Below, piece by piece: positions 595 through 28,056 of a stretch of 64,000 nucleotides of DNA. The notes under the pieces were generated by a model that saw only the letters and a list, made by a program, of their open reading frames with translations, ran no database searches and was not told the DNA's origin. The translations under genes were made by a program, and so were the position numbers. Source of the stretch: Danionella cerebrum (taxonomy: Eukaryota); assembly GCA_007224835.1 (NCBI GenBank), contig SRMA01025353.1:427535-491534 (forward strand). The letters are read 5' to 3'. The first letter of the stretch is position 1. Each line of letters starts with the position of its first letter.

Positions 595-662
595 TCACAG
601 AGTCTTTGTCAGAATCTCCTTCACTCTTGTCTTCGTAGAACTGGCAAAGATTAGCACATGTC
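595..662 (-). CDS. ZNF gene 1, terminal coding exon (short tail ...GHVLIFASSTKTRVKEILTKTL*)
   Basis: Strong acceptor ttatttttgttattcctgcag|GA on the minus strand (AG = plus 663-664). Its phase 1 matches the upstream donor. Stop TGA at 595-597. Confidence 0.4.
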
Positions 663-802
663 CTGCAGGAATAACAAAAATAATGTCGTGTATTCCTTGA
701 AAGATGTGGACTTTCTTGAAAATATTAGCCCTCCGGCGCACACACACACACATACACAGATATATATATATTTATATAAATTCTGATAACGTTAACATTT
801 AC

Positions 803-1507
803 CATGTTTCATCCGAAGGTGCTTTAGAAGGGCTGACGTTGTGTACTCTTTGCGCCCGCGAGAAATGACGGCCATACACATAAGGCACACTGCTTTGCTA
901 CAATCTCCCTCTTTCAGAGAGAAATACTTCCATACTGGGCTTGATTTGGCAACCGTCCTCTTTTGCATTTCGCAGCATTTACTGCTACAGTTTGTCCTGT
1001 TGCTACAAAGTATGTTGTGATACGAAACGTGATTATCCTCAAGAGATGAACTGCAGTGCTGAAAGGCTAAGGGAGGAATGTCAGCGTTGGTGTATGTTTG
1101 CTGAGTCGGGTGTTGAGTTCTGTAGACATCCGATATCCCTTGAGGCAAGTCTGGACATTGTGGAGACCAGTCCTGATACACATCTTCAGCACTTTGCATT
1201 TCATCTCCTGAACTTGAGTTCGAGTTTATGTATTCGACTTTAATTTTAGGGGCAAAATGAGAGTCCTCCACAGGAATCGTGTCATTGTTTTCCACAAACA
1301 CGTCCGAACTCTCGTTGGCTTTTGGTGGTGATTCTCTCTTTGCGTTGATGGAGTATCGAGGTTTTTCTGATTTGATGAGTGGGTGGAGCTCATCGTGCCT
1401 CTCACTCGGGTCCCCTGGGATCTCCTCAATGGTTTCTGGGTCTTCATTCTGACTACAGATCCATCCGGGGTGAATGGGGGAGATGGACTGATATGACTCC
1501 AAAGTAG
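803..1507 (-). CDS. ZNF gene 1, exon 2. A Ser/Pro/acidic region ending in a BED-type zinc finger (PVWKYF...CLMC...TTSALLKHLRMKH).
   Basis: Acceptor ttttttctttctttcttataag|CT (phase 1) joins in frame to the exon 1 donor. A BED C2H2 signature is present. Donor CATG|GTAAAT at 797-802 falls immediately after the last His of the finger. Confidence 0.6.
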
Positions 1508-1964
1508 CTTATAAGAAAGAAAGAAAAAAAATAAAGAATACTCTAAACATGAAATGTGTTAGCTATACGAATATCTGGAGCATCAACAGCAATAAACAAA
1601 ATGCAATTAATACCTTTCTCACAGCATTGAGCAGTCCACGTATATTTTAATTACATTTATTTAGCAAGCATTTCTCATGTTTTGTAAATACTTTTTAATT
1701 TATTTGACAATATTTTTTAGAAGTTAGTATCTTCCTTTGTTGCTGATAACATATACCAACTATTTGACCAGTCAACTCCCTATAATGACATTAAATATAG
1801 GTCAACTATTATTTAAACCTAATTTAAATAACATTTAACAAGGTTTTGTATATTCTAGTTTACCATACCATATATGCTTTTGGCTAGTTTTGGCTAATTA
1901 ACTCTTATAACAAAGATAACTCTATAACAAAGAATCTTATTTATTATTTACTCTGTAACGTGAA

Positions 1965-2185
1965 ATAACAAATAAGCATCTCGTTATTTAACCAAATAAC
2001 AATAAAGCATTTCATTATTTATGACGTGGTAACTAAATAATAATTATAAATAAAGCATTTCATTATTTATGACGTAGTAACTAAATAATAATTATAAATA
2101 AAGCATTTCATTATTTATGACGTGGTAACTAAATAATAATTATAAATAAAGCATTTCATTATTTATGACGTAGTAACTGTAATTT
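1965..2185. repeat. Minisatellite, about 4 tandem copies of a ~60-bp AT-rich unit (ataaagcatttcattatttatgacgtRgtaactaaataataattataa). Each copy has a TGACGT (CRE/ATF half-site) core.
   Basis: Direct reading. Near-identical units start near 1990, 2050, 2110 and 2160, alternating between TGACGTGG and TGACGTAG. Confidence 0.85.
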
Positions 2186-2517
2186 CAATCTAGGAACTAA
2201 AGCAAACAAAGCATCTCATTAATTATAACCCAGGAACTCGGAGAGAAACAGTCTCGTATTTTGTTTGACAAGTTCTTGTTTTGTTGTGACAGTAACAATA
2301 AGTTATTTTGTCGTTAACACGACTTACATATTTTGTAACTTATTTGCATAAGAAATAACGGCCAAGATTCGAGGATGATCGCTTTTATCTCGACCAGAGG
2401 CTCACTCAGACCGATACCAAAACAGACGCATGCAACACAACACGTGAATTAGACCAAGTATTTAAGAGCTAAACAACCACGATATTTCAAGCAAAAATAC
2501 TGCTTTAATCGTCATAC

Positions 2518-2697
2518 CAGCACTGGTGTCCATGGAGAAACAGCCGGTGTCTCGAAGCATTTCTTTAAGCCGCTGGTTTTCGCTCCTCACGCGCTCCGTT
2601 TCCTCCTCGTACTCGCGCACCGTTTTACCCACGGTGAAGAGGATCTCCTTCACCGCGGCCATCAGGCGCTCGGTCATAAACGAGTTCAGCCGGTCGA
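2518..2697 (-). CDS. ZNF gene 1, first coding exon. This is the fish-type N-terminal leucine-rich/coiled-coil domain (MTKLDRLNSFMTERLMAAVKEILFTVGKTVREYEEETERVRSENQRLKEML...).
   Basis: ATG at 2695-2697 (minus). Phase-1 donor GCTG|GTATGA at 2511-2517. Paralogous to the first exons at 11550-11739 and 14159-14348. Confidence 0.65.
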
Positions 2698-4512
2698 GTT
2701 TAGTCATTCTGCTGTTTAGTTGTGGCTTTATGGTTGAAATGATAGTGAATACAACAGGGAAAGTCCCCTTAAAATCAACCCGTTTGGTCAGTGTTGTTGC
2801 GCTGCCTGCTAAACTGTCTTCATCGCCCAACACAGGCCAGGAGGAGACACTGCAGGCCCTCAAGTAAAGCGATCGTATCAAATAGAACAAGAATTTAGAT
2901 CGAGTATATTAAAGTGTGTATTCTTTTTATTTAGGGAAAGTGAACACTTTTGAGCATCCCGAGGAAAAGTGTCCAGCAACGTCATCCTCAACGGTCGTTC
3001 AGTTGCCTAGTTACAAGCCTGTCAATCATACAGGTCAGATTCTCAACATTTGCTCTATCTATGTACAAGTTTATATATTGAAATATAGATTTATATATAT
3101 GCTGACTTGAAATGATTTGTCTTATAATACATGGCACTTTATATACCACTTTACAAAAGTCCTTTTGACACTTTTACCTGGTAAATGTTAAATATCTCAG
3201 ACTTCAAATGTATTATACAGACACAGTTCTTACATTTTCCTCACACAGTGATTTATCTTTCTTCCCTCTACTACCTCTAGATTTTTTTTGTTTACTTTTT
3301 TGTTACTTAGTCCCTTAGGATAAAAGGGTCTGCTAAATACATACATGTAAATATCTTTCCCTATGGTTTTTTTGTACCACTGATGTATCTAAAGAATATT
3401 TCCAATAAAGTAGCCAGCTATTTAAAAACTGAACATAAATGCATTAAAAAAATCTACATTTTATTTACTATGTCAACATTAAGGAGAAGTTAATTAAGGA
3501 GTTTTCATAATGGGTGCGTTCCTGAATAGTGGAACTGGACTGTGATTTAAAACCCAGAAGGCACAAAAGGTAAAATTCCCTTGTAAAGGCAATATATTTG
3601 TTCTTGTTCAAACGCAATGCTGAGTGTCTTTGCTTTGTGTTCTTATGTAAGAAAGATACTTTTTAGAACAAGTGATCCAATGTAATGTTAATATTGTATT
3701 AATTTGATTCTAAAATATTATCTATACATGTAAAAAAACAAATGCAATGTTTGCATCGAGCTTTTATTTATATGAACACATTACTTGAAACATCAGCTTT
3801 TGGTACTTTTTATCATATGTACAGTCCCTAAGCTAACAATATAATATAAATTCAACAAAAACCCACAGCCATTTTGCTCTAATAAGTCTCCTCTTGGTTC
3901 TCTAAAGCATCCAAATAATTTCAGCTTTGAACTGTATTGATTGAACTAGATTAAAAACAATTAATGTTGGGTTTGTTTATAGAGTTAAAACAACTTCAAA
4001 CAAACAAAAATTAAAGTAAAATTTGAGACCCTGGTACGTTCAAGTCTTGTAGACATTTTTCCAAGTCTCACAAACTCGATTAAACAGAATAGCATTCTTA
4101 GTTTGGAAGTTCGTCACAACTACTATTGTGTATCCAGGTCCCAGACCACAAAACACTAGAATCGGATTTGTAGACGACTTTAGGACGATTCCTATGCATT
4201 AATGGGTCTCCACTGTTGTCTGGAACAGATAAGGGCAAGAATCTGATATCGACTTGAGACTTTCTAATAATTTATGCACCATTCTAGCTTCCTTTTCAGT
4301 CACCAATGAAGAGCATAAAAACCATCTGTTCTCATTTGGATCAGTTGTCTCATCACAAGTGTGGGATTGTGAAAGTTGGGGTCTCTGTGAACCATTTACA
4401 AAGAACTTGATTTCTGACACTAAAAAATTATGAACAACAAAACTACTTTACATTCTATGACCAATTGGGAAAGGAAGCAAAAAAAAAAAAAACGTTTAAT
4501 TTCTCTACAAGT

Positions 4513-5706
4513 CTAAGACTTCTCTGAGATAATCTGATCTGGTTCATCATCATTGCGGTTTGTGGGTTCTTTAGATTCATTCTGGATGGTGTCGGTTGTG
4601 TCAGGAGCTTTTAAGGTAGAATCGCAGGAAAGATTTGTCCCCGCATCTGAACTTTCCTTTTGTTTGCTTGGGGATTCTTCTTTCTCATCATCATCTGAGA
4701 GGAGAACACATGTATTCAAGTTTTTCTGCAGCCTGTAAGAACTTATTTCCAACACGTCATCTTCAGTATCCGACAGAACATAACAATCTGAAGGACCGTG
4801 ATTCTCCATGATGTTAGAACAAGTTTCCTTTAACACTTCAACAAGCTCCTCATCATCCGAGAGGACGACACAGCTTGATTTCAGATCGTCCTTTTTCTCA
4901 GCAGCATCGGTATTCTTGAACCAAGACTCGAAATCACTGTTCTGTTTTAGAAGGGTTAAACGAATTGAGGAACTGGCTATTGAATCACTCTTTCCAGGAG
5001 AGTCTAGATGTTCGGATGGAGATGATCTGAAATCTTGATTTTCATCTACTTTACTCAACAACTGGTCTGAAGCACAGGGAAAACTACAGCTTATCTCCTC
5101 TTGGCGATGCTCTGGTGTACTTGGTTTAGATGTTTGATTGGTCTGTAAACTCTCCTTGGGGAGCTCCTCTGCTAAGGGAGAGTCATGCTGTGGGGAAGAA
5201 ACCACAACAGAGATTATCTCAGTTTTATGTAAAAAGTTGCAGCACATTTCAGGCATGTTTTCAACACCATGAGCAAAGCATTTATCCACTGCTTTGGAAT
5301 CCACGGAAGTTTCCGCTGATGTTTTTTCATCCCCAACCACCACGGAGGATATTTGATCATGATCAAAGACCCTTCTTTCAGAACCTCTTGATTTTAAGGC
5401 CTCAGGCAAAAAGCTCCAGTACTTGAGATCCCTTTCAACAGGTTCTAGAACAATCATGGGCTGCAAATTGAAGTCTTTCAAGTCGTAACTGGCTCTCTTG
5501 GCGTTTTTTGGAATTTTCTTGTCAAATGCCCCATATCCACCAATAACCAATTGTGGTAGGATCCCAGGTTTGGCAGCAATCTCTTGCGCAACAATATCAG
5601 GACTGCTTACGAGATTTTCAGGCTTTGAGTTGGATCCGCTGTTGTTTACATCCAAAGAGCTTGATTCATTCATGGTTTCTTCCAAACTTTCGCAGTTCAT
5701 TAGAGG
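4513..5706 (-). CDS. ZNF gene 2, terminal exon. A ~398-aa Ser/Asp/Glu-rich tail with three repeats of a SUMO-interaction-motif-like block (CVVLSDDEELVEVL, CYVLSDTEDDVLEI, CVLLSDDDEKEE).
   Basis: Acceptor ttttcccccaatgcag|CCT (AG = plus 5707-5708) in phase 0, matching the upstream donor. Long ORF to the stop at 4513. Confidence 0.6.
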   Translation of the reverse strand, partial: PLMNCESLEETMNESSSLDVNNSGSNSKPENLVSSPDIVAQEIAAKPGILPQLVIGGYGAFDKKIPKNAKRASYDLKDFNLQPMIVLEPVERDLKYWSFLPEALKSRGSERRVFDHDQISSVVVGDEKTSAETSVDSKAVDKCFAHGVENMPEMCCNFLHKTEIISVVVSSPQHDSPLAEELPKESLQTNQTSKPSTPEHRQEEISCSFPCASDQLLSKVDENQDFRSSPSEHLDSPGKSDSIASSSIRLTLLKQNSDFESWFKNTDAAEKKDDLKSSCVVLSDDEELVEVLKETCSNIMENHGPSDCYVLSDTEDDVLEISSYRLQKNLNTCVLLSDDDEKEESPSKQKESSDAGTNLSCDSTLKAPDTTDTIQNESKEPTNRNDDEPDQIISEKS

Positions 5707-5783
5707 CTGCATTGGGGGAAAACAGTGACAATGACTACGCTTCCAAAGTCATTCAAAGTAGTAAATTGTACTATGTACCGTAC

Positions 5784-6002
5784 CTCCTCCACCTCTAGAC
5801 CTGAGAGGTTACGATTAGGCACTTCTCCATAGAACAGTGGAATCCGTTGCCGATAATGATACGGTTTATCACCAGTATGATTCTGTAAATGAATCAAAAG
5901 TTCCATTTCCAAGGAAAACATTTTGCCACAAAGAGGGCAAGGAAGAAGCCCTTTGGTTCTGCTCTGCGATAACAACTTTACAAATTTGGCTTGTTTGGGG
6001 GA
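5784..6002 (-). CDS. ZNF gene 2, exon with a single C2H2 finger (PCPLCGKMFSLEMELLIHLQNHTGDKPY)
   Basis: Acceptor ttttcttttaacag|TCC (phase 0). Donor GAGGAG|GTACGG at 5778-5783. C-x2-C-x12-H-x3-H pattern. Confidence 0.6.
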
Positions 6003-6083
6003 CTGTTAAAAGAAAAGCGAAATAAATCAATGGAATGTGCAAGCTCATATTACATAACGTGATTTAATTTGTAAGACACACAC

Positions 6084-6386
6084 CGTTTCAGTTCTTCCTT
6101 CTTCTTCTTCTTCTTCCTCAGTCTCAATTCCTTTTTCAGTTTTCACGTCGTCAAGTTTAAATTTCCTCTTCCTCATACTACGTTTACCTCCCGTGTCAAA
6201 CATTTCTCTGATTGTAAGTTTCCCTAGATGTGCAGTTTGCAGAATATGCAATTTAGGCAAGTCCACAACACATCCTCGTAATTTGATATTTTTTGATTTT
6301 CCAGTTTTTAGTTTGAACTTCTTAGTGACGCTCTGCGCATCACATGTAGAGGTGTTGGATTCTTCAGCTGCTTGCTTCTCCGATGG
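6084..6386 (-). CDS. ZNF gene 2, basic/acidic linker exon (KKFKLKTGKSKNIKLRGC... ETEEEEEEEGRTET)
   Basis: Acceptor ttgattgacaag|CCA (phase 0). Donor GAAACG|GTGTGT at 6078-6083 (phase 0). No in-frame ATG, so it is an internal exon. Confidence 0.5.
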
Positions 6387-8377
6387 CTTGTCAATCAATA
6401 AAAAAGTCAAACGGGTTAGTACATAATTGTTATTGACTTTTTCATGCACCTGGAAGTCTTACGAAAAACCCCCTACTCATACCTGGTGTAGCGTTCTGGT
6501 GTGTGGTTCTGGTGATGCCTTTCCAGCAGATGCTTCTTTACTGTTGGGTAATTTCTCCACCAGTTCTTCTTTGCATGACTATGAGAAAGACAAATTTCCA
6601 ACCTCAATAAGAGCATGAACGTAAACAAAAACATAACTAATCAGAACAGAGTTTTGCGTAACATATCATCATTTCTTTTTATGTTTCCAAGTCTTCACGT
6701 GAAGCACTAGAGATTGAAGGTTTTCCAAAACAACAGAAGACAGAGGAACCTTGGTTGGTTTTAGAACAAGGAAAGGCATTCACCACCCACAACCTTTATC
6801 TGTAAACTAAAAAAAAAAAAAACTTTTTTGTATGAATCACCTCAATGGTTATTTTTTAATTGTAAATCTGCCAGACTCCATTATGTATTTATTAAAACTT
6901 TCTGTACTTACCAACCAAATTTAAGCCATTGATTAAAATGTAAATGAGAAATCTAATGGTGTCTGTTCACTTACTGACGTCTTGCTGCACCAAAATGAAT
7001 TTGGAGCCATCATTATTGTTATATACCAGTAAAACGAGATTTCCGCATTAGTCTAGAGCAAACACCCCAGATATTTTCAGAATTATTCATATAATGCACC
7101 TGAAAGCTATTCTTTTTTTCTTCACAGCCTCAATTTTTAAGCATGAAAGATGAAATATTCCCACTGACCATCCATTTCTATGTGGACAGGAAACAGATTG
7201 GAACTTCTTCACTGGCTCCTTGGGAGACTACGAGGAAGACCTATTTCCAATCTCGATAAAAGTATGCGTGATCAGAAATCTAATCAGAATTGCGCTGCAT
7301 GAAGATCCCTATCTCCGTCTGGATTTTCCTCTTTCCATTATCTTAGATACAATTTAGGATTGTGACACTTCATGTGAAGAAACCTCTTTGAGAGTTTTCT
7401 CACACTTTAGACAGTGGAATCTTATTTGTTGTTTCAAGGAACCCTCCCTATTCCTTCATCATTTTCAGTCTGTCCCTGAAACAAATCCAAGGCCAGTTGA
7501 TTAGAGGAGGAAAAGTACAGGTTGCAAAAAGTGTAGCATTCCCTGAACACAATGTGTTTTTTTTTTATCGATTCATCATTCCATAGTAAACTCTGTGTGC
7601 TTATAATGAAGGATTCCAAGACTCATGCACGTATTAGTTTAATAAAGCTCATTTAGCCACCCAGGAAAGAAAGGAGGGACTGAGAAGCTGGTTCCGACAA
7701 TCAATGGGTAGGATTGGACCCGCTATTAAGGACGTGGGTTATTAGGAAAACTGATTTAGGCCTAAAATCCAGATCGACTCCCCCCAAAACATGTCATGTA
7801 AACAGTCCTTAAAGCCATAATGTACAGAGGGCTCCTGGACCCAGCTCGGTCTAGACTGACGCCATCTTTCAGGAGGAAAATCCCAAAGGAATGGCTTCAG
7901 AAGAAAGCTACATGGAGGTGCACCCATCCAACATAATGGAGTGAGCCATACTGCTACGATAAATGGAAAAAAGCATTCTAGTGAGTAATTTTGGTTAGAC
8001 TCAAGAGTTGTGGATTAAAAATGTAAAACTTTTACCTCAAAAGTCCAAAGTAGAACACGAAGGACCATGAACGATACAAGAACGCAAATTAATCGGGATA
8101 TTCTTCAAATTATGAATTTGCCTAAATTTTAATTTAAAGCCACTCTTGAACATTTGTAGAATAAAACAGAAGTGCAGACTCAAATGCAAACAATGATATT
8201 TAGAAAACATTTAATAACAATCAAATCATGCACAGGCAGAACGGGTTTTTTTTTAACTGTGTACATTTTCTATTTGCCTGCATTTAATTTGCAACACATA
8301 TATATTGGCTGCGTTTCTGATTATAAAATCTTCCTCGTCTCACTTTCTCCTCCAAAACTTTCTGGTTCGACCTTCAC

Positions 8378-8629
8378 CATTTTAATGGGAGCTCTGCGTG
8401 AAATGTTGAAGGGTGTCCCGACTGCATAGCTCTGCCGTTTTCCCTCTAGGAAGGAACGTGGATGAACTTGTCTAAGGTGACTCCACAAATTAGTGGTGTT
8501 CCTCTGACCAGCATTGGTGGACCCCTGGCTAACTTTAGCAGAACATTCACGGCAGACAGCTTCTCCAAATAACCCTCTTGAAAAGTAGTCCCAAACTTTG
8601 CTATAACAACGTTTTGCCCGAAAGCCCAC
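8378..8629 (-). CDS. ZNF gene 2, BED-type zinc-finger exon (SKVWDYFSRG...AVCRECSAKV...NTTNLWSHLRQVHP)
   Basis: Excellent acceptor ttgtttatttttctcgcag|GTG (phase 0). Canonical BED signature W-x-F...C-x2-C...H-x4-H. The proposed donor ATG|GTGAAG at 8372-8377 is of moderate strength. Alternatively the ORF runs to a stop at 8321 and the downstream exons belong to a separate gene. Confidence 0.5.
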
Positions 8630-9444
8630 CTGCGAGAAAAATAAACAATATATAATATTTGCCATTTATCCAATAAAACTTTCTCATGTGTACCTAACTA
8701 ATTAAGTAAGCATTATTTTTGTAACGATTAAGGGTGCACTTCAAATTAAACAAACCTGATCAGAACACTGTGAACAGGAAAAGTGCTTGAATTACTGACG
8801 AATCTAAAGATCATGCTAACGCTTTTGTGAAATATCCATTATCTTCATACCTCGTTCAAAACATAAAAATATTTCACACATTTCAGCAGCAGAGAGGGTT
8901 TTTTTTTCCATTTCCATGTTGCTTAAAAAGGTTGCCCTGCTTAATAATGTGGAATACCTTCCTTAAATTGGGCTCATCTGGCAACCAGAGATGCACTGAA
9001 TAATAACCCCAGGTAAATTTTGATTGTGTTATTTTGAATGAACTTTTGTGTACAAGCTCTGTTTTGGACCTCAGACTCACCATCAATAGTGCTTCCACTT
9101 CAGATGTTGCTTTCTTGTTGCCATCGAAGACTGCCTGTTGCTGCAGGCTGATCCTAAAATAACTCCTTAGTATCCGACAAATCCCTAAACTAATAGCACA
9201 CCTATTTTGAACCAATGAAAACAAGCTGATCCCACTTTCAAGATATTGATCATTGTCCACTGATCAATCAGACTATTATTCTTAGGTGAAAGCATTTGAA
9301 CAATTGAAACAAAAAGACCATAAAAGAGCACTCTGATACATACATTATCATAATGTAGCATTTTACTTGTGAAAAATAGCGTACATGTAGACATGTACCG
9401 TATATTAATATACCATTTATGACAGAAAAACAAAAGTACAGTAC

Positions 9445-9813
9445 CTTGGGTACTTCTGTCTCCATGGTGGCAGCCTCATCAGTGGTCGATTGTGATGGAG
9501 TGCATTGGTTCATGTCGTGTTTATGGGTCCTCATGTGCATGGTAAACTGAGCATGCCCTGCAAGGGTCCGATCGGGGCACACTGGGCATTGCATGAGAGT
9601 ATAAAGTCTTTTTTTCCCTTTTCGACGGCGCTTAGATTTCGTCCCTGTAACATTGTACTTAATAAGAATGCTTTCCTTATTGTCAAAAGTCGTTTCATCT
9701 AACTTTTCTTGACCAACATCAGTGTATGCTTCAGGTGCTGTGGTATTATTTGTCTCCACAGAGTCATCCATCAAATCATCCTCATCGTGTTTGCTGTGAT
9801 CGTGATGCTGTGT
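9445..9813 (-). CDS. ZNF gene 2, exon 3. His/Asp-rich stretch, a basic KRRRKGKK patch and a degenerate C2H2-like finger (CPVCPDRTLAGHAQFTMHMRTH).
   Basis: Acceptor tttttttttttttttgcag|ACA (phase 0) fits the phase-0 donor of exon 2. Donor AAG|GTACTG at about 9439-9444 is weaker. Paralogous in layout to exon 2. Confidence 0.5.
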
Positions 9814-10148
9814 CTGCAAAAAAAAAAAAAACAACAACAATATAATACGCATTTTGATGATAATGCAAATGCAGAACTTTCTCTCAGACATTAATTTGTA
9901 TGGATGTATAGCTATGGAAATTTAAATTTTTTTAATTAATTATTTCCACTTTGGATTATTCATTTGTTTAGTTAATAAAAAAATTGTTATATTGTAACGT
10001 TTCTTAAATGGGTGGGTCATCCCTCCTATTTTTTTTTTTTTTTAGTCTTTTAAGCATTTTTACATGGTATGGACGACTAAATTCACATGAGCTTTTTGAA
10101 CCCACAATAAGGTTAGTAAAATATAAAAATCTACTAAACGTCACTCAC

Positions 10149-10588
10149 CTGTGAGAGCCCATATTTTTTTTTTCCTTTTCTACTATTTCCATAGAAGAAC
10201 GTCTTGCGCTCGCGGCATGTATATCGCGGACTATCGTTGGAATGGATCCGCATGTGAACCAGCAGTGTCTGCTTTTTTGCAAACACTTTTCCACAATCTG
10301 GACAAGCAAAGGACATCTTCTGTCGTGTGTTCTGCTCCTTCCAGAGCCTGAACCTGGAGGCTTGTAAGGAAAGATCATATTCCATAGGAGCCATGAAACT
10401 TTGAGCATTCTCTTGTGCCTTCATTAACGTGACCATGATTTCAGGTCCGCTTAGAGGGCGTACAGTCGAGTTATTTTCAATGTCAGCGACATCTGAATTC
10501 AGTTCAAATCTGGGGCTGGCAGGTCTTTCATCTTCGTTTGATGGACTAGTTTCCTCTGGGATGGGAATGGTTGGCTTTTCTGATGAAT
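10149..10588 (-). CDS. ZNF gene 2, exon 2. Acidic/Ser-Pro region plus one C2H2 finger (FACPDCGKVFAKKQTLLVHMRIH) and a basic KGKKKYG tail.
   Basis: Acceptor aaattttcag|AT (phase 1) joins in frame with the exon 1 donor. Consensus donor CAG|GTGAGT at 10143-10148. Confidence 0.65.
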
Positions 10589-11549
10589 CTGAAAATTTTA
10601 AATTTAAGACATTTAGATTGCAATCTCTGCTCATGAAACTGAATTTATGAGACTTCAGTCAAAATGTCTCCCAACTATTTTACCATTAGAGGTCATACAC
10701 TCATTGACCACTTTAATAGGTACACCAGTCTGCTCGTCAACGAAAATTTCTTAACAGCCAATCACATGGCAACAACCAAATTATTTCAGGCAAGTAGTTT
10801 AATCTGCTGCAGTTTAAACCAAGCAGGGAAGAAAGGTTACGGTAAAGCTATACATCTCATTGGCATAGGCCATAACTGAACATAATTAAATGTTTGTTCT
10901 TACAAATTATGTACATTCCTCTTCAACTTTGTGGACTGACAGTTTAATGATTTTAAAACCCAATGTTTGCAATTTTATAAATACTCTTGAAAGTAATTCA
11001 ACTCATTAAAAAAACGATTAAATTAATTTTACAATATAATGGAGTCACCGCCTATGGACATTAATGGGAATAAATAATAGAAAGTCTTAAAACGTTTAGC
11101 TATATCAAAGCATTACACGTGTAGAAAACTTTTGTCCTTATGTAACTTTCCTTTAATGTAACATTGTATGTTTGTTGTTTGTAATTTAAAAAAAAAATAA
11201 CGTTGTATATTTTCGAAAGTGTAATCAAAGTCATCCGAATAGCGCGCCATTTTGGCCGCGCATGCGCATTAACAATAATTACGTCTAATTTTATTAATGC
11301 CTCTTAAAGCATTTAAATACAATGTCATTTCACTTAGAACGTAAAATACTTCTGTTTAAATGTAATGTCTATATTTTTGCTGGGATCACCATTAATTTAA
11401 GCTAAAGTGTTCTATTACCACTACAATGATCAAACGGCTAGTAATGGCCGCTGTTAACAAACGTCTTCCCGAGGAATCGTCACAACATGCCATCATTTCA
11501 GCGCACCTTTCTATATAAAAACTAAATATATCTAATTGTATTAAGTTAC

Positions 11550-11739
11550 CTGCCCACTCTGCAGAATTTGATTCCTGTTTCCAGCGAAGATTTCGTCGCA
11601 GTTCCTCGTTTTCTTTGCGCACACGGATCGTCTCCTCCTCGTACTCCAGCAGTACTCCGCCGACCATCTCCATGATCTGCTCCACCGCCGCCATCAGGCG
11701 CTCGTTCACCGCGCGATGCAGCAGCTGCAGCTTCGTCAT
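11550..11739 (-). CDS. ZNF gene 2, first coding exon (N-terminal coiled-coil domain MTKLQLLHRAVNERLMAAVEQIMEMVGGVLLEYEEETIRVRKENEELRRNL...)
   Basis: ATG at 11737-11739 (minus) with an in-frame stop upstream. Phase-1 donor GCAG|GTAACT at 11544-11549. Paralogous to the first exons of genes 1 and 3. Confidence 0.65.
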
Positions 11740-12419
11740 TTTCAGTTTTTTAGTGCGTGTAAACACTTCACAAGCGAAAGAGCTAGCAGTCTCTTTTAGT
11801 TCTCATAGCCAGGATCACCTCCGAGTCGGAAGAGAGAAAATAAACACGTTGGCTGCCACCTAGAGCACTGGAGAAGAACTGTTGTCAGACATTTAAACAT
11901 TTGAATCTAAAATATTAATATGAATCCACAACCTAATGTTGATCAAAGTAACTTTTAGATTAGCTAATAAAATAATATTAATCAATGCTATTTATGGTAT
12001 TACATTAAGCTTATAATGCCAATAAGAACGGTTACATGTGAAGCTGCTTGAGTTGTAGTGATTTCAGCACGATACTTTTGATTTGATGGCTTGTGCCATT
12101 TATAGATAAGTGCAATTCTAAAATATCAAGGCTCAAATCTAGGCAAATATATTAGTTTAAGAGGTATTTATTCCCTAAAGCCACAATTATAAATCTCAGG
12201 GTTTATTAGAAACTACAAGGTAATCAATAATGAATCACGGTCCAGAAACAATCAGGATTGTTTACAGATCATTAAAGATTGACAACAGATAAAGTAGCAT
12301 GGTATTTAAATATTTCACTCTCTGAAAGAATTGTTGTTATTAACAGATTTTATTAAAGATGTCATTAATGTGCATAAATTTTGGCATTTTATGGATTTCA
12401 ATACCTTTTATTGACCTCC

Positions 12420-12900
12420 ATACACAGGTGAGTCCAATTATGAGAAAGTATTAAAGTGTTTTCCATCTTTGCATCTTCTCTAAAGAGGGAGAGCCTCAAA
12501 ACAACTTCCAGATGAGGCTGCAAACCTTGATTGTTCAAGAGCACGGTTTAGAGGAAGGGTATACAGAAGATTTAATCTCTCAGTTTTAACTGTGAGGAAT
12601 TGAAAGGCCAGTTCTAGTTATGGTCCAAAGTGGCAGACCCAGAATAATCTCACATAAACCGAGGCGCAGGATGATGAAAAGTCATGGACAACCCACAGAA
12701 AAGCATTTTGCCTTTTTTCAGAAAACCAACAATTTCTAAAAGAAAATCCTGACAATTTACTGAATGACTTGATCTTGCTTTTAATAGTCGGAGTCATTGC
12801 AGACAAATTGTAGTTCATCATATGGGGATTTTGGTCAGTTTATTCATGTTTAAAAGGCCTTGTAACCATTTATAAGATTTTCATTTCCCAAACAACAAAT
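12420..12900 (+). mobile_element. Internally deleted Tc1/mariner-like element. It retains the transposase N-terminal (paired-like) coding remnant and 3-prime tail.
   Basis: Fragment ...gccagttctagttatggtccaaagtggcagacccagaataatctcacataaaccgaggcgcaggatgatgaaaagtcatggacaacccacag translates to the SGRPRKIS..RRMM..V.DNPQT motif of Tc1 transposases. The tail resembles the 16.6-16.9 kb copy. Confidence 0.55.
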
Positions 12901-13173
12901 ATTTTCACAATGCAATCAGACACAACTCCTTTAAAGAAACAGATCTGAGGTGATTGCTGCAGTCTCTAGCATTAAAAAAAATCTTTATATTAAATAAATA
13001 TTTTGATAGAGGTGAAATAATTTGTTAGTGTGCCAGTAATCTATATCTAAGCTCGATCATCTTCTGTAACTTGTTAGCGTCTACTTTTCATACTTGGAAG
13101 ACAATAAATAAATAAATAAAGCATCTAAAAAAAGTGTAACTTCAGTTCTCTGTCCCACAGGAAGTTCATCTGA

Positions 13174-13976
13174 TCACTCAAAGGAAAGCAAGTGCTCCTC
13201 TTCGTGCAGAGCTCCCGCTGGTTCTTCACTTGTCCTCTGGCAGATGCGCTCATGTCTCCTCATGTTCCCACTCTGGCTGAAGGTCTTTGAGCACCAATTG
13301 CAGCGGTACGGCCGTTCCCCGGTGTGCGTTCGCATATGCATCCGAAGGTAATCAAACTTTGAAAAGTTTCTTCCACACCAGTGACAGATGAAGGACCTCT
13401 CGTGCAATTTTTTGTGCAACTGCAGCTTTGACAAGTCTTTCAGATGCCTTCCGCACTTGTTGCACTTATACGGCCCTTCGTTATCATCGTCATCATCCAG
13501 ATCGAGATTTATTGCAGATGCCACTCTTGCTCTGGCAAACCGTGCACGAAGCCAGTCCTTCTGCGGTGGTCTCCTCAGTGTTTCAGTGACTCTTCTCAGC
13601 CGCTGACTGGTTTCTGAGGCTATATTTGAGTTGCCGTGTGCAGGGGTTGTGGTAACTGATGATGTTATCGTGATGACCGTCTCTTCCGTTTCAGATTTTA
13701 TTCTTGGGGTTGCTGCAGTGTTCACAGCCTCCTCGAAACTGGCGTCAAACTGTGGGAATGTCTGCCGCTCATCTGCGGATAAGGCATCTTTAAGGTCACC
13801 GTGGACTATCTCGGACTTACAGACTGAAACAATGTCTAGCATCGGCGTCTCCAAACAGCCCGGTGACACTTGAATTGGGACACTGTCTTCAGTTTGCTGA
13901 TTCTTTTCTGATTCAGATGAAGTCTTGATGATGCGCGGTGGCAATTCTGATGCTGTGAGTTCAACAGGAACCTTTC
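13174..13976 (-). CDS. ZNF gene 3, exon 2. Ser/Thr/acidic region plus three tandem C2H2 fingers (YKCNKCGRHLKDLSKLQLHKKLH; FICHWCGRNFSKFDYLRMHMRTH; YRCNWCSKTFSQSGNMRRHERIC).
   Basis: Acceptor ttaatctatggtttcag|GA (phase 1) is in frame with the exon 1 donor. Canonical H/C links TGERPY. Stop at 13174-13176. Confidence 0.75.
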
Positions 13977-14158
13977 CTGAAACCATAGATTAATTGCATG
14001 GTACTATTAGAGCATTTTAAGAAGCTGCAGTCATTTATACCACAAAACTACAATTTTCTCCAACTTCTGCACAGTACTGTATTGGTAACCGCTAATTAAA
14101 CACACCAATATTTTATATTTATACAAATACAAATGACTCAATATAAACTGCCACGTAC

Positions 14159-14348
14159 CGTTTAATCGAGTCTCGTTCCTGCTCAGAGCATCCTCCAGCT
14201 GCTGTTGGAGTCTCGCGTTTTCTAACCGTGTTTGGGCTGCTTCCTTCTGGTAGATGTTCACCGTCGCTTCAACCTCCACCCAGATCTCACGAATGACGAT
14301 AGACATCCGCTTCATTAGAGCGGAATGTAGCTTATCCAGTCTTGACAT
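14159..14348 (-). CDS. ZNF gene 3, first coding exon (N-terminal coiled-coil domain MSRLDKLHSALMKRMSIVIREIWVEVEATVNIYQKEAAQTRLENARLQQQLEDALSRNETRLN)
   Basis: ATG at 14346-14348 (minus). Consensus phase-1 donor AAACG|GTACGT at 14153-14158. Confidence 0.75.
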
Positions 14349-21650: not shown

Positions 21651-22198
21651 ATTTGGAAAGTTTCCATTCATATGTTCTTAAAAAATGGCCAAGAAATTAG
21701 AAAATGTTGCCAGGGAGTGTAAGCTAACGAGCACGACTGTACATTAATCTCTGCAGGCCACTAAGAAGATTTCAAAATAACAGACTGCACAATGACGGAA
21801 GAGGCGTGGCATTAAAACCAAATATCACCACACACACTTCTGAACATTTGGGAAAGCCAACGCTAATCTGCAGTTTGTCCAAAACTCTTCAAGCAATGTT
21901 TACAATCGAACCCTCCAAAGAGCGATCCATAATGATGAGGACCCCATTTCAAAGCTTCAGCAATTACCAAATGTATGCATCAATGTTCTGAAAATAACTC
22001 TGCACCTTTTTCGTAGAGAGTTTTCCAAGACTAAAGGCTGATCATCTCATGGCTGTACATCAACTTGGAACAACTTGCACCGGTTTTTGAATTCTGTTTT
22101 CATCCCAACTTGGGAGGAATTGCGAATTCAAGATTCTTGAATTGCATACACAAGACAAAGAAATGGAATTGAAACTTAAAGAAAAGTGGAGCACCCAC

Positions 22199-22491
22199 CA
22201 TCACAGAGAACGTCAAGCCAACGATGTTGATGGGCCAAACGGGGCAGAGGCAGGCCAGAATGGCCCATACAAGATAGTCATTGGGTTTGGCTGCATCTGC
22301 TCCGGGATCGGTGGCTGCGCTGGGCTGTCGGGAGAGGGATGGTCGGGGCGAACCCCCATGACTCACTGACCCCGAGCGACTGCTGAGCCTAGCACGACCG
22401 TTTGCATGCGAGCTGCTGGGTTTGGCATGCTGTTGACGTGGAGATGAACTGGATGGAGGGCTGTCTGTAGGAGCCGTGCATACGCCGTTAC
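22199..22491 (-). CDS. prrt2: prrt2-like, central exon: Pro/Ser-rich region plus the first CD225 transmembrane segment (KPNDYLVWAILACLCPVWPINIVGLTFSVM)
   Basis: Acceptor tctccctcatctccataacag|GT (phase 1) and donor ATG|GTGGGT (22193-22198). The segment matches the PRRT2 motif DY-ILAILSCFCPMWPVNIVAF. Confidence 0.7.
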
Positions 22492-22600
22492 CTGTTATGG
22501 AGATGAGGGAGAGATACATAAGAGACTTCTTTCCTATTCAGTCAAGGAAGGATGTCCAACAAGCCGTACAAGGTACTGAACATTCCCAAATAACTTACTT

Positions 22601-22845
22601 GTTTCCATCCTCTCATCGATGACGGCTAGGTGATCTTTGGGTGGGGCATCCAATGAAGGGGCGGAGTCTGTAGCCGCAGGAGTAGGTGCTGTGGCTGGAG
22701 CTGGATCTTGTTGCTCATTCTGTATTGGCTGGGAGGTGATGGGTGTGTTGTCCGAGTCTGTTTGTGGTTGTTGACTGGTTTCTGGCTCTGATGTTTGCTT
22801 TGCCTCCGCAGCAGCGGTAACGCTGGCATCAGTGTTTAAATCCAT
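22601..22845 (-). CDS. prrt2: prrt2-like, first coding exon (MDLNTDASVTAAAEAKQTSEPE... Pro/Ala/Thr-rich N-terminus)
   Basis: ATG at 22843-22845 (minus). The ORF-track start is TTG. Consensus donor ACAA|GTAAGT at 22595-22600 (phase 1). Confidence 0.55.
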
Positions 22846-23569
22846 TCCCAAGGTGCAGATGTCAGCGTGTGCAAGGTAAAGTCAGGCTTCTATATCTTTA
22901 TGAACTTGATGAGAACTGTTGGGCGTAAATAAATAGTTATTAGAAGAGGTCCTGTTCACGTACTGGTACAATACAGTCAAATACAGAGAAACTTGGGATA
23001 AATCTACACGTCAGCTTAGCGAATTAGCATTTCTGTTCCTATAATGGACAAAAAATAAACTATTGAACTTTTGGACACTAATGAATGTATTTTTGGGACT
23101 CATTTACAGAGAAAGCATAAGCATCCCTATTTATGTTTAGGGTAAAATTTAGTGGGCACCTTTCATGTGAGTCTATTTGAACCAGACACAAACAAGTCTT
23201 GAAAGCCCTTCTGTATTAATCCTTAGAAATCTGCGGGCTTTTTGAGGGTTTAAACAGCTTTTCTGATTTATAACGAAGATAAAAATTGTTGAGACAAAAT
23301 AAATATTAATACATCACCCAAACAAGTTAAGACAAGTTCAAAACAATGTGTAAATTAAATAAAAAAAAAGTCGAAACACAAGCTATATCACAGGTCTTTT
23401 ACTTCCAAGGGTTATCACCTCATTTCACCACTAGATGGCACCGATTTAGGGTTTGTAATATGAAATTGAAAGACGATCACACATTTTCTCACATAAAAAT
23501 TTTGCTAATTATTTACCCAATGTTGTCATCAACTCATGGTTTTCATTCACTCATTTGCTTTACCAATTT

Positions 23570-26803: not shown

Positions 26804-26992
26804 CTGTAGCTCTGGTCCAGCTCTCGCCATTTCCTTCAGAGTTTCAGTACCCAGGTTCTCCATCATGAGCTTGAAGCGCTGACTCTCAATCTCTGCTAAC
26901 TTCTGCTGCTTCTCGATCTCCAGCTGGTCCATTTGTTTCTTATAGCTCAACTCTTGCTCACGTGCTTTGCACAGGCGAGCCAGCTCAGAGTC
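26804..26992 (-). CDS. mvp: mvp exon 15
   Basis: Acceptor catgttag|GAC. Donor CTACAG|GTGAGG. Encodes [63 protein letters not shown]. Confidence 0.8.
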
Positions 26993-27066
26993 CTAACATG
27001 GAGAAATCCGCGTTTACAATCCACCAATTCAACCTGTATAATTGATAAAAGCGTATAAAGACATAC

Positions 27067-27193
27067 CGCCTCAATCTTCTGAGCATCTGCTTTGAGTTTG
27101 GCTTCCTCAACAGCTGCCTCTCCCTGAATACGAGCTGCCTCGGCTCTAGATAGCGCCTCTGCCTTTGCAGCTCCTGTGCTCTCCACTGCAGCA
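27067..27193 (-). CDS. mvp: mvp exon 14 (…[42 protein letters not shown])
   Basis: Acceptor ctttcag|TGC. Donor GAGGCG|GTATGT. Matches the MVP cap-helix region. Confidence 0.8.
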
Positions 27194-27270
27194 CTGAAAG
27201 ACAGACAGAGTGTTTACTGACCACGAGCGTGTCGGAGTTTAGTATAGCACTGGTCATTTTCGTTTATTCA

Positions 27271-27388
27271 CCTCTTAGCCTCCAGCTCCAGCAGTTCTTT
27301 TCTTGCCTTCTCAGCCTCTGCCTGGTCTGTGATCTTCTGCCTTTCCAGGCGACCCCGAGCTTCCTGCTCCAGACGCTCTGCTTCATGT
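27271..27388 (-). CDS. mvp: mvp exon 13 ([39 protein letters not shown])
   Basis: Acceptor cttcctgcag|ACA. Donor AAGAG|GTGAAT (phase 2). Near-identical to human [40 protein letters not shown]. Confidence 0.85.
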
Positions 27389-28056
27389 CTGCAGGAAGAA
27401 AAGTCTTGGCCATAGCTCACGCTTATCAAAGAGGATGCTAACAAGTCTGATGCTAACTCAAATACAGTCAATAAACTAGCCACAACAGCAAGATAATAAG
27501 CGCTAGTTGGGACTTGAAAAACAAAGACAATATAGCTACACCTTACGTGTACAATTCCTGACAAAAAGTCTTGTCGCTAATCTGTTTTAAAGAAACACCT
27601 GCTATTAACCTCACGTGAAAGGTTAAAACCCTTCCAAATTATGTTTAATAAACTGAAATAAAACTAGTTTCACTGAAAAAAAGATTTAGCAATTAATCAA
27701 GACAATTTTGCCTACACAGAAATTGATCAGATTTAGTGCAAATAAAAAAATAGCAAATTAGTTAGTGGTGCTGTGAGATCCAACTTCAATATCTTGTATG
27801 ACTTCCATGAAAGATTGCAACAGATAGCAAAGAAAGCAGTCTTGCATGCCCCCCAAGTTCATCAGTAATCTTGGGTTGCGTCTTCTATGCTTCCTCTTTC
27901 ATCCTACCCCAGGCATGCTCAATAATCTTCATGTCTGGTGACTGGGCTGGCCAATTCTGGCTGTGGCCCAGTGGAAATTTACAAAAGAACTACATTTGGC
28001 CTAATATCTAATCTAAGGACCTCTAAGATTAGAAACCTTAATACTTGGATCGTACC

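What the first reader, a model, noticed from the sequence alone, without database searches (positions are those of the whole stretch)
595..14348. Tandem cluster of three paralogous fish-type zinc-finger genes with a shared N-terminal coiled-coil exon and divergent finger content (BED versus C2H2)
Three minus-strand genes begin with clearly homologous first coding exons: MTKLDRLNSFMTERLMAAVKEIL..EYEEETERVRSENQRLKEML, MTKLQLLHRAVNERLMAAVEQIM..EYEEETIRVRKENEELRRNL and MSRLDKLHSALMKRMSIVIREIW..IYQKEAAQTRLENARLQQQL. Each ends in a GT donor at the same codon phase (phase 1), which argues for tandem duplication of one ancestral gene. Downstream, the DNA-binding modules have diverged sharply. Gene 1 ends in a BED finger. 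Gene 2 mixes C2H2 and BED fingers. Gene 3 has three classical C2H2 fingers. The N-terminal domain looks like the N-terminal module found on many teleost-specific C2H2 ZNFs, possibly the FiNZ-type domain. I cannot verify that from memory.
Basis: partly seen in the sequence, partly recalled or inferred. Interest (0 to 1): 0.7.

Follow-up and report, generated by a model that had tools for sequence, protein, structure and literature searches.

The report
Ancient fish zinc-finger gene cluster
Three neighbouring genes in this Danionella fish sequence all start with the same long-helix exon and then carry different DNA-binding zinc fingers; they are real, old, conserved but uncharacterised genes, and their shared start is a widespread fish domain that has no Pfam entry and is not the "FiNZ" domain.

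Summary
The window is Danionella cerebrum DNA. Three minus-strand genes start with homologous first exons. Each has 190 coding nt and a phase-1 GT donor, and a profile finds no fourth copy in the window.

- **G1** (2707→595) is the ortholog of si:dkey-93n13.2. It has the helix, a low-confidence linker and one BED finger.
- **G2** (11739→4513) is the ortholog of zgc:66474. Its long form has C2H2 fingers only. A short form ends in a BED exon with its own stop (8629..8321). Carp and Sinocyclocheilus proteins match this short form end to end.
- **G3** (14348→13174) is exactly TRY95628.1 and has three C2H2 fingers.

The duplications are old. The order CD225–G3–G2–G1 is conserved in loaches, where a fourth paralog follows G1. 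Denticeps has a single helix+BED gene in the held stretch at the same MVP–CD225 position.

The shared exon is not FiNZ. It is predicted as one 52-residue amphipathic helix (pLDDT 96). It has no Pfam or PDB match, yet it hits 1,504 protein clusters, and every named hit is a teleost, from eels to flatfish.

I infer, without testing, that it is a coiled-coil pairing or effector module, analogous to SCAN, BTB or KRAB. This is an ordinary ZNF cluster with a moderately interesting unnamed domain.

The parts
14159..14348 (-). G3 exon 1 coding part: ATG at 14348, 190 nt, phase-1 donor GTACGT. Encodes the N-terminal helix domain.
   Evidence: profile E=6e-26. The spliced model equals TRY95628.1 exactly.
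13174..13976 (-). G3 exon 2: acceptor TTTCAG|GA, linker plus three C2H2 fingers, stop TGA at 13176..13174. Protein of 330 aa.
   Evidence: Pfam zf-C2H2 in 3 stretches, E=7e-14. Exact database match. Full-length orthologs in Cypriniformes at 39-59% identity.
11550..11739 (-). G2 exon 1 coding part: ATG at 11739, 190 nt, phase-1 donor GTAACT. N-terminal helix domain.
   Evidence: E=1e-27. 81% identical to zebrafish LOC327500/zgc:66474 residues 1-64.
10149..10588 (-). G2 exon 2: linker plus C2H2 finger FACPDCGKVF..HMRIH, followed by a degenerate finger remnant. Phase 1 in, phase 0 out.
   Evidence: Pfam zf-C2H2 E=5.6e-7. Identical in the annotated DNTS_017849 protein.
9445..9813 (-). G2 exon 3: acidic and basic linker plus an atypical C2H2 finger (CPVCPDRTLAGHAQFTMHMRTH).
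   Evidence: Only a weak Pfam zf-met match, E=0.0055.
8321..8629 (-). G2 alternative terminal exon: acceptor CTCGCAG|GTG in phase 0, BED finger, own stop TAA at 8323..8321. Gives a 435-aa short isoform made of helix, C2H2 fingers and BED.
   Evidence: Pfam zf-BED E=1.9e-9. Splice context. The 435-aa model aligns end to end (E=1e-119) with the carp 'Zgc:66474' 450-aa protein A0A8C1DLB0, with the junction ..PK|V.. at the same place. Sinocyclocheilus cluster members are 454-461 aa.
6483..6578 (-). G2 long-isoform exon (SCKEELVEK...TLHQ), used in the annotated DNTS_017849 protein in place of the BED exon.
   Evidence: Splice sites are CTCATAG| and |GTATGAGT.
6084..6386 (-). G2 long-isoform exon: basic and acidic linker.
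5784..6002 (-). G2 long-isoform exon with the last C2H2 finger (LPCPLCGKMF..HLQNH). The acceptor at 6002 is supported by homology. The database model starts this exon at 5882 and cuts the finger.
   Evidence: Zebrafish and Megalobrama orthologs align from 6002/5969. Pfam zf-C2H2 E=8e-4, below cut-off.
4513..5706 (-). G2 long-isoform last exon: about 397 aa with no Pfam match, three VLSD(D/E)-type acidic motifs, stop TAG at 4515..4513.
   Evidence: No Pfam family. 29-33% identity to the zebrafish and Megalobrama C-termini.
2518..2707 (-). G1 exon 1 coding part: ATG at 2707, 190 nt, phase-1 donor GTATGA. N-terminal helix domain.
   Evidence: E=6e-30. AlphaFold2 predicts a helix over residues 3-53/54 at pLDDT about 95.
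792..1507 (-). G1 exon 2: acceptor TTATAAG|CT in phase 1, low-confidence linker, BED finger. Either reads through to ..MKHGKC* (stop 794..792) or splices at 803|802 (CATG|GTAAAT).
   Evidence: Pfam zf-BED E=1.1e-10. 39 homologs at E<=0.001 (si:dkey-93n13.2 family), most full-length at 39-70% identity; the BED part is 72-94% identical.
595..662 (-). G1 optional exon 3: acceptor CCTGCAG|GA, tail GHVLIFASSTKTRVKEILTKTL, stop TGA at 597..595. Gives a 320-aa form.
   Evidence: The tail matches the C-terminal extension GN(A/V)LIFGSAKKRRMKEITRKTV of cyprinid orthologs in alignment A2.

Best explanation
**What it is.** This is part of an old, conserved tandem cluster of zinc-finger transcription-factor-type genes in Danionella cerebrum. 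The genes lie on the minus strand downstream of MVP and a CD225-family gene.
- G3 is an unnamed three-finger C2H2 protein, DNTS_017834.
- G2 is the ortholog of zgc:66474.
- G1 is the ortholog of si:dkey-93n13.2.

**Shared module.** Each gene starts with a 190-nt coding exon for a module of about 55 residues. The module is predicted as one continuous amphipathic helix. It belongs to a very large N-terminal domain family of teleost zinc-finger proteins that has no Pfam model.

**Origin (inferred from synteny).** The cluster grew from a single helix+BED gene by tandem duplication before or early in otophysan evolution. The copies then acquired or kept different DNA-binding ends. G1 has BED only. 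G3 has C2H2 only. G2 has both, chosen by alternative 3' exons.

**How it most likely works (inferred, not shown).** The helix forms a coiled coil that pairs these proteins with themselves, with each other or with a cofactor. Its C-terminal half has a heptad pattern with an invariant Asn, as in dimeric leucine zippers. That would make it a protein-interaction or effector module placed before a low-confidence linker and a zinc-finger DNA-binding end, as SCAN, BTB or KRAB are in other ZNF families.
For: **Species and gene models**
- The G3 model equals TRY95628.1 of Danionella cerebrum.
- G2 matches DNTS_017849 at 88% identity over 100% of the query, with zgc:66474/LOC327500 orthologs in Cypriniformes, Characiformes and Siluriformes.
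- G1 has 39 homologs at E<=0.001, most full-length, named si:dkey-93n13.2 in several species. Their BED finger is 72-94% identical.
- G3 has full-length orthologs across Cypriniformes.

**Exon structure**
- All three first exons have 190 coding nt and phase-1 donors.
- All downstream junctions are in frame.

**BED short isoform of G2**
- It aligns end to end with carp A0A8C1DLB0 'Zgc:66474', and Sinocyclocheilus members share the cluster.

**Synteny**
- Triplophysa dalaica has CD225 -> G3 ortholog -> G2 ortholog on one strand.
- T. tibetana has G2 -> G1 -> a fourth helix+C2H2 gene.
- Prochilodus has G2 -> two BED paralogs.
- Denticeps has MVP -> CD225 -> one helix+BED gene -> PDZ gene, with only one helix exon in 21 kb.
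- The window itself carries MVP and CD225 exons upstream on the same strand.

**Domain family**
- The profile of the domain hits 1,504 50%-identity cluster representatives at E<=0.001 and 298 at E<=1e-10, mostly at residue 1 of the protein and many followed by C2H2 arrays.
- Named hits come from Elopomorpha, Osteoglossomorpha, Otophysi and several acanthomorph orders.

**Structure**
- AlphaFold2 predicts one helix over residues 3-54 at pLDDT 95.7.
- In full-length G1 the helix is followed by a region of low confidence at 68-228.
- Hydrophobic columns recur every 3-4 residues along the whole helix. N44, L47 and L51 are invariant or nearly so.
Against: - There is no transcript evidence from Danionella itself. 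The junctions rest on frame, splice consensus and homology to annotated proteins of other species, many of them computational models.
- The coiled-coil or dimerisation role is inferred from a monomer prediction and the residue pattern. No oligomer was modelled and no interaction data exist.
- No single heptad register fits the whole helix.
- The neighbour-joining tree of the 55-residue domain does not place G1, G2 and G3 as each other's closest relatives, and the support values were not read from the output. G3 groups with characiform sequences that lie on other contigs. A common local origin for G3 therefore rests on position and exon structure only.
- Which finger type is ancestral depends on one outgroup, Denticeps.
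Confidence: 0.8

Rival explanations
1. The genes are FiNZ-type zinc-finger genes: members of the cyprinid-specific, rapidly expanding FZNF family that represses transposable elements.
For: The gene layout is similar: a short N-terminal domain exon followed by a finger exon. The host is a cyprinoid fish. The FZNF layout is described in PMC10547256.
Against: - FiNZ is 28 aa, glutamate-rich, unique to cyprinids and precedes arrays of at least 5 fingers.
- The published FiNZ residues V11/I13/E15/F21/Q29/T32/D33 do not match the corresponding columns here (M/L/V, E/K, L/M, E, T, E, Y).
- No FIKEESE-like motif occurs in the window.
- The domain here is about 55 aa, helical and found from eels to flatfish.
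- The three genes are conserved orthologs found in one or a few copies per species, with 1-3 fingers or a BED finger.
Confidence: 0.02
2. The N-terminal helix is the 'KRAB-like' domain of actinopterygian ZNFs proposed by Carotti et al. It would work as a TRIM33-binding repression domain rather than as a dimerisation coiled coil.
For: [quoted passage not shown] The family found here is also N-terminal, widespread and attached to C2H2 arrays.
Against: - Their sequences could not be retrieved.
- Of the residues they list (A25, L27, Q29, L37, L48, K49), only K48-type positions loosely fit alignment A1.
- Their family has one or two genes per species and includes gar, bichir and sturgeon. Here there are hundreds of clusters, and all named ones are teleosts.
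- Pfam KRAB gives no match at E<=1.
- A single 52-residue helix is unlike the two-helix KRAB fold.
Confidence: 0.12
3. The shared first exons, or the G2 BED exon, are not genuine exons. They would be copies of a dispersed repeat or a hAT-transposon fragment (BED fingers are typical of hAT transposases) lying inside introns.
For: BED fingers derive from hAT transposases (established knowledge). The database model DNTS_017849 skips the BED exon.
Against: - Only three copies of the helix exon occur in 64 kb. Each starts a conserved orthologous protein.
- The flanks of the three exons do not align.
- The BED exon has a strong phase-0 acceptor matching exon 3.
- Its product is collinear with carp and Sinocyclocheilus zgc:66474 short proteins, including the junction and the tail after the finger.
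- I saw no transposase-like ORF among the minus-strand ORFs downstream of it.
Confidence: 0.03
4. The three genes are a recent Danionella-lineage tandem triplication. Their fingers would have diverged quickly, as in fast-evolving KRAB-ZNF-like arms-race clusters.
For: The genes lie in tandem on one strand with identical first-exon length and phase.
Against: - Each gene has its own orthologs across Cypriniformes or Otophysi in the same order.
- Paralog identity in the helix is only 27-53%.
- DNA similarity is limited to the coding part of exon 1.
- The G1 BED finger is 72-94% identical in its homologs, which points to purifying selection.
Confidence: 0.02

Closest known systems
Zebrafish zgc:66474 (LOC327500) and si:dkey-93n13.2, with their otophysan orthologs (uncharacterised genes)
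   Same: - G2 and G1 are their orthologs.
- The G2 first exon is 81% identical to the zebrafish one, and the exon order is collinear.
- G1 aligns full-length at 42-70% identity with named si:dkey-93n13.2 proteins, and the BED finger is strongly conserved (72-94%).
- The two genes are adjacent in other species.
   Different: - Danionella G2 lacks the central part of zebrafish LOC327500 (residues about 352-674, several C2H2 fingers).
- No function is published for either gene in the searched library.
FiNZ-ZNF genes of cyprinids (Wells et al. 2023)
   Same: A fish ZNF family defined by a short N-terminal domain on its own exon upstream of the finger exon.
   Different: FiNZ is 28 aa, acidic, limited to cyprinids, present in about 700 copies in zebrafish, evolving adaptively, and attached to long finger arrays. 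Here the domain is a 55-aa helix found across teleosts, and the three genes are conserved orthologs with few fingers or a BED finger.
SCAN-, BTB- and KRAB-ZNF families of tetrapods, and ZAD-ZNFs of insects
   Same: The layout is the same: an N-terminal protein-interaction or effector module, a linker and C-terminal zinc fingers. The genes lie in tandem clusters, and the domain sits on a separate 5' exon.
   Different: There is no sequence match to any of these in Pfam. The module is predicted as a single long helix, not a helical bundle (SCAN), an alpha/beta fold (BTB), a two-helix box (KRAB) or a zinc-binding fold (ZAD). Here the same module is also joined to BED fingers.
ZBED proteins (domesticated hAT-derived BED-finger genes)
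   Same: G1 and the G2 short isoform carry a Pfam zf-BED finger. There is a weak sequence match to the human ZBED2 BED domain 2DJR, E=0.058.
   Different: No hAT dimerisation or transposase-derived region is present. There is a single BED finger at the C-terminus, after an N-terminal helix shared with C2H2 proteins.
'KRAB-like' ZNFs of ray-finned fish (Carotti et al. 2022, 2024)
   Same: An N-terminal domain of actinopterygian ZNFs proposed as a KRAB substitute.
   Different: Identity with the present domain could not be tested because the sequences were not retrievable. The listed residues, family size and taxonomic range fit poorly.

Membership tests
FiNZ-ZNF (Wells et al. 2023) | N-terminal 28-aa glutamate-rich FiNZ sequence | tested here: not met
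   - The domain here is about 55 aa.
- The published FiNZ residues V11/I13/E15/F21/Q29/T32/D33 do not match the A1 columns.
- No FIKEESE-type motif occurs in any frame of the window.
- The authors' HMM itself was not available.
FiNZ-ZNF (Wells et al. 2023) | Restricted to cyprinid fish | tested here: not met
   The domain family includes eels, bonefish, mormyrids, characins, catfishes, gobies, opah, soldierfish and flounder.
FiNZ-ZNF (Wells et al. 2023) | Second exon with a long array of C2H2 fingers (the paper's general ZNF annotation kept only sequences with at least 5) | tested here: not met
   G3 has 3 fingers. G1 has none, only a BED finger. G2 has isolated fingers spread over several exons.
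Pfam zf-BED (PF02892) | Score above the gathering cut-off of 20.6 bits | tested here: met
   G1 exon 2 scores 41.7 bits (E=1.1e-10). G2 exon 8629..8321 scores 37.9 bits (E=1.9e-9).
Pfam zf-C2H2 (PF00096) | Score above the gathering cut-off of 25.2 bits | tested here: met
   - G3 exon 2 scores 51.8 bits in 3 stretches.
- G2 exon 2 scores 30.1 bits.
- The G2 finger at 5784..6002 scores 20.1 bits, below cut-off.
- The G2 exon 3 finger gives only a weak zf-met match.
Unnamed teleost ZNF N-terminal helix family (profile A1 built here) | Significant match to the 55-column profile at the protein's N-terminus | tested here: met
   The three window exons score E=6e-30, 1e-27 and 6e-26. They were among the sequences the profile was built from, so this is partly circular. 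Independent support: 1,504 library hits, mostly starting at residue 1.
KRAB / SCAN / BTB ZNF subfamilies | Pfam match to KRAB, SCAN or BTB in the N-terminal region | tested here: not met
   None of these families matches the three N-terminal exons at E<=1.
'KRAB-like' ZNF of actinopterygians (Carotti et al.) | Sequence similarity to the published KRAB-like N-terminal alignment | not testable with these tools
   Only accession numbers and a few residue positions are available. The sequences cannot be fetched by accession here.
Orthogroup zgc:66474 | Best hits named zgc:66474, with a collinear first exon, first finger and C-terminal exon, and a conserved neighbourhood | tested here: met
Orthogroup si:dkey-93n13.2 | Full-length collinear similarity and a conserved position downstream of zgc:66474 | tested here: met
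Coiled-coil (leucine-zipper-like) dimerisation domain | Continuous helix with an a/d hydrophobic repeat | tested here: inconclusive
   A continuous helix is predicted at high confidence. Hydrophobic columns recur at 3-4 residue spacing, with N44/L47/L51 conserved. No single heptad register fits the whole length.
Coiled-coil (leucine-zipper-like) dimerisation domain | Demonstrated oligomerisation | not testable with these tools
   No multimer prediction or experiment was possible with these tools.

The most novel reading that the evidence does not exclude
The 55-residue N-terminal helix may be an undescribed, teleost-wide effector or dimerisation domain of zinc-finger proteins, a fish counterpart of SCAN or KRAB. 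This MVP-CD225-linked locus would then preserve its early state, a single helix+BED gene as in Denticeps. From that gene the module spread to C2H2 genes. Coiled-coil heterodimers among the cluster paralogs, and between the two zgc:66474 isoforms, would combine BED and C2H2 DNA-binding specificities.
Probability: 0.2. Interest if true: 0.6.

Novelty: new member of a known kind. Interest (0 to 1): 0.3.

Why it matters
The locus itself is an ordinary conserved cluster of uncharacterised zinc-finger genes. Two things may be useful to specialists.

1. **The shared N-terminal module.** It belongs to a very large teleost family (1,504 clusters at 50% identity). That family has no Pfam model, and I found no name for it in the searched literature. 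It should not be confused with FiNZ. Fish lack KRAB-ZNFs, and how their ZNFs recruit partners is still an open question.

2. **Domain exchange on one N-terminal module.** The locus shows a single helix+BED gene in Denticeps against G3–G2–G1 here, with a fourth helix+C2H2 gene after G1 in loaches. One of these genes, zgc:66474, still switches between a BED end and a C2H2 end by alternative 3' exons.

The work also corrects the Danionella annotation. DNTS_017849 omits the BED isoform and truncates the last C2H2 finger. My exact G1 protein model was not found in the protein collection.

Tried and rejected
- **G2 "long" model through the BED exon.** My first long model for G2 spliced out of the BED exon at an internal GTGAAG donor (8378) into 6386. 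I dropped it. The annotated protein uses exon 6578..6483 instead, with good splice sites. Carp proteins show the BED exon as terminal.
- **Neighbour-joining trees of the 55-aa domain.** The run on all 190 domains timed out. The reduced 49-sequence tree recovers each orthogroup as its own group, and a few unlabelled library sequences nest inside them. It does not join G1, G2 and G3, and the support values were not read from the output. I treat it as uninformative for deep relationships.
- **PDB sequence search with the helix profile.** It gave only weak, generic coiled-coil matches at E>=0.04. A fold search on a single helix would be meaningless, so I did not run one.
- **Literature searches.** Searches for the domain motif strings and for the gene names zgc 66474 and dkey-93n13.2 found nothing. 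A search for a named teleost ZNF N-terminal domain found only general ZNF papers.
- **Exact-sequence look-ups.** My G1 and G2 models were not found. Contig look-ups for P0001 and P0210 returned nothing.
- **hAT-fragment reading of the G2 BED exon.** Considered and rejected; see the rival explanations.

Full report
**1. What is in the sequence**

Their coding segments are 2707..2518, 11739..11550 and 14348..14159. Each is exactly 190 nt and ends one base into a codon, before GTATGA, GTAACT and GTACGT.

The similarity is above chance. Within the 64-kb window, tblastn gives E=1.6e-12 for G1/G2, 5e-9 for G1/G3 and 0.006-0.011 for G2/G3. A profile of the domain scores the three exons at E=6e-30 to 6e-26. 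Nothing else in the six-frame translation scores better than E=0.5. There are therefore exactly three copies in the window.

**2. Gene models**

*G3.* The model is 14348..14159 plus 13976..13174, giving 330 aa. It is identical to TRY95628.1, "hypothetical protein DNTS_017834" of Danionella cerebrum. That match also identifies the organism. Pfam finds three C2H2 fingers.

*G1.* The model is 2707..2518 plus 1507..792, giving 301 aa ending MKHGKC. Alternatively, a donor at 803|802 joins a third exon at 662..595, giving 320 aa.
- Suckers, loaches, characins and catfishes have the GKC end.
- Cyprinids have a tail, GN(A/V)LIFGSAKKRRMKEITRKTV, that matches the Danionella exon-3 product GHVLIFASSTKTRVKEILTKTL.
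- Pfam finds one BED finger (E=1.1e-10).

*G2.* The shared 5' part is 11739..11550, 10588..10149 and 9813..9445. Two 3' ends follow.
- **Short form.** Exon 8629..8321 has a strong phase-0 acceptor, a BED finger (E=1.9e-9) and its own stop. It gives a 435-aa protein. This aligns end to end (E=1e-119) with carp A0A8C1DLB0 "Zgc:66474" (450 aa), including the ..PK|V.. junction and the tail after the finger. Sinocyclocheilus proteins of 454-461 aa are in the same 90% cluster.
- **Long form.** The exons are 6578..6483, 6386..6084, 6002 (or 5882)..5784 and 5706..4513, as in DNTS_017849 (896 aa). Homology to the zebrafish and Megalobrama proteins supports the upstream acceptor at 6002, which restores a C2H2 finger that the database model cuts.

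So "mixes C2H2 and BED" is correct for the short isoform. The BED exon and the distal exons are alternatives.

**3. Orthology and age**

- G2 is the ortholog of zebrafish zgc:66474/LOC327500. Relatives occur in Cypriniformes, Characiformes and Siluriformes.
- G1 is the ortholog of si:dkey-93n13.2. It has 39 homologs at E<=0.001, most of them full-length. The BED finger is 72-94% identical in them, 75% in the clupeiform Denticeps.
- G3 has full-length orthologs throughout Cypriniformes, loaches included. Characiform sequences have a G3-like helix.

Gene order is conserved:
- Triplophysa dalaica has CD225 → G3 → G2 on one strand.
- T. tibetana has G2 → G1 → a fourth gene with the same helix plus C2H2 fingers. 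The fourth gene is also annotated in Myxocyprinus.
- Prochilodus has G2 followed by two BED paralogs.

The window itself has MVP exons (about 27-34 kb) and a CD225-family exon (22.1-22.5 kb) upstream on the same strand. In Denticeps the order is MVP → CD225 → one helix+BED gene → a PDZ gene. Only one helix exon is found in the 21 kb held. The Denticeps helix is closest to G2 (58%) and its BED finger is closest to G1.

The simplest reading is a single helix+BED ancestor that duplicated in tandem in the otophysan lineage. That G3 arose locally is less certain. The tree of the 55-residue domain does not join the three groups, and the support values were not read from the output. At the DNA level only the coding part of exon 1 aligns among the paralogs, as expected for old duplicates.

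**4. The N-terminal module**

It has no Pfam match. The Pfam lists precomputed for its homologs show only zinc-finger and a few unrelated families. There is no significant PDB sequence match.

A 17-sequence profile (A1) finds 1,504 cluster representatives at E≤0.001 and 298 at E≤1e-10 among 1.84 billion proteins. In most hits the match starts at residue 1, and many are followed by C2H2 arrays. Named examples come from eels, bonefish, halosaurs, mormyrids, characins, gobies, opah, soldierfish and flounder.

AlphaFold2 predicts one uninterrupted helix over residues 3-54, with mean pLDDT 95.7. In full-length G1 the same helix is followed by a low-confidence region (68-228) and a poorly modelled BED finger. 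Hydrophobic columns are 4, 7, 11, 15, 19, 22/23, 26, 30, 33, 40, 47 and 51. R14, E36, E43 and N44 are invariant. The C-terminal half has a regular 3-4 spacing with Asn44 in a core position. This fits a coiled coil. No oligomer was modelled, so that part is inference.

**5. Not FiNZ**

Wells et al. define FiNZ as a 28-aa glutamate-rich N-terminal sequence unique to cyprinids, with about 700 genes in zebrafish (PMC10547256). The FiNZ residues listed by Carotti et al. do not match the corresponding columns here. The window has no FIKEESE-type motif.

The "KRAB-like" domain of Carotti et al. cannot be compared, because only accessions are given. The few listed residues and the family's size and range fit poorly. 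I keep it as a minor rival.

**6. Mechanism**

*Shown:*
- the gene structures;
- the finger types;
- conservation of the genes and their order;
- the predicted single long helix;
- the size of the helix family.

*Inferred:*
- The helix is a coiled-coil interaction module for self-pairing, paralog pairing or cofactor binding. It would tether the zinc-finger DNA-binding ends through a flexible linker, as SCAN, BTB or KRAB modules do in other ZNF families.
- G2 can present the same helix with either a BED or a C2H2 end.

*Speculation from the motifs alone:* the long G2 tail carries three VLSD(D/E)-type hydrophobic-acidic motifs, with one similar motif visible in each of the zebrafish and Megalobrama sequences. 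These resemble SUMO-interaction motifs.

**7. Verdict**

It is wrong about FiNZ, and it needs refinement on age and on G2 isoforms. This is a conserved cluster of annotated but uncharacterised genes. The moderately novel element is the large teleost N-terminal helix family, which has no Pfam model, and its coupling to both BED and C2H2 fingers.

Noticed in passing
L001:13274-14946 (Triplophysa tibetana); would lie left of window coordinate 1: A fourth paralog lies directly downstream of the G1 ortholog. It has the same N-terminal helix (MTKLQIINTFLTERLMAALNEIMDM..) plus C2H2 fingers and is 380 aa. It is also annotated in Myxocyprinus (LOC127450890). The Danionella cluster therefore probably extends beyond the window's left edge.
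   Followed up: partly
window 26985-34291 (-) and 22100-22851 (-): Major vault protein exons (Pfam Vault/Vault_2) and a CD225-family, PRRT2-like exon lie upstream of the cluster on the same strand. The order MVP, CD225, then helix gene(s) is the same in Denticeps, and loaches share the CD225-then-helix-genes part.
   Followed up: partly
window 50228-55687 (+): ORFs that may belong to another C2H2 zinc-finger gene with a long acidic stretch. It has no N-terminal helix domain. It resembles a MAZ-type gene from memory only; its identity was not established.
   Followed up: no
window 59351-60172 (+): A single 273-aa ORF matches Pfam Put_Phosphatase (PF06888, E=7e-81), a PHOSPHO1/2-type phosphatase gene.
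   Followed up: no
window 4513-5706 (-): The last exon of the long G2 isoform carries three hydrophobic-acidic motifs: CVVLSDDEELVEV, CYVLSDTEDDVLEI and CVLLSDDDEKEE. The zebrafish (SCVVISDGEDTDEMPSI) and Megalobrama (CVVLSDVEDNVDEDVL) C-termini each show one similar motif. These look like SUMO-interaction motifs, judged from the sequence pattern only.
   Followed up: no
window 8321-9445 versus zebrafish LOC327500 residues ~352-674: The central part of the zebrafish protein, with several C2H2 fingers, has no counterpart in the window. The Danionella gene appears to have lost or shortened these exons.
   Followed up: partly
window 10149-10260 and 5784-5900 (-): After two separate C2H2 fingers in G2 the same degenerate motif recurs: H..(S/T)..PY.YR.R...FYG. 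The orthologs have it as RPYxYRxRKxxFYGD. This suggests an internal duplication of a finger plus a decayed second finger.
   Followed up: no
window 792-806 (-): The G1 donor site CATG|GTAAATGTTAA also encodes the conserved C-terminus G-K-C-stop when not spliced. Non-cyprinid orthologs all end in MKHGKC, while cyprinids splice to an extra 22-aa exon. One sequence serves as both splice donor and conserved coding end.
   Followed up: partly
L002:4076-6824 (Prochilodus magdalenae): A gene called with Tc1/mariner-type transposase domains (HTH_Tnp_Tc3_2 + DDE_3) lies between the zgc:66474 ortholog and the two BED paralogs.
   Followed up: no
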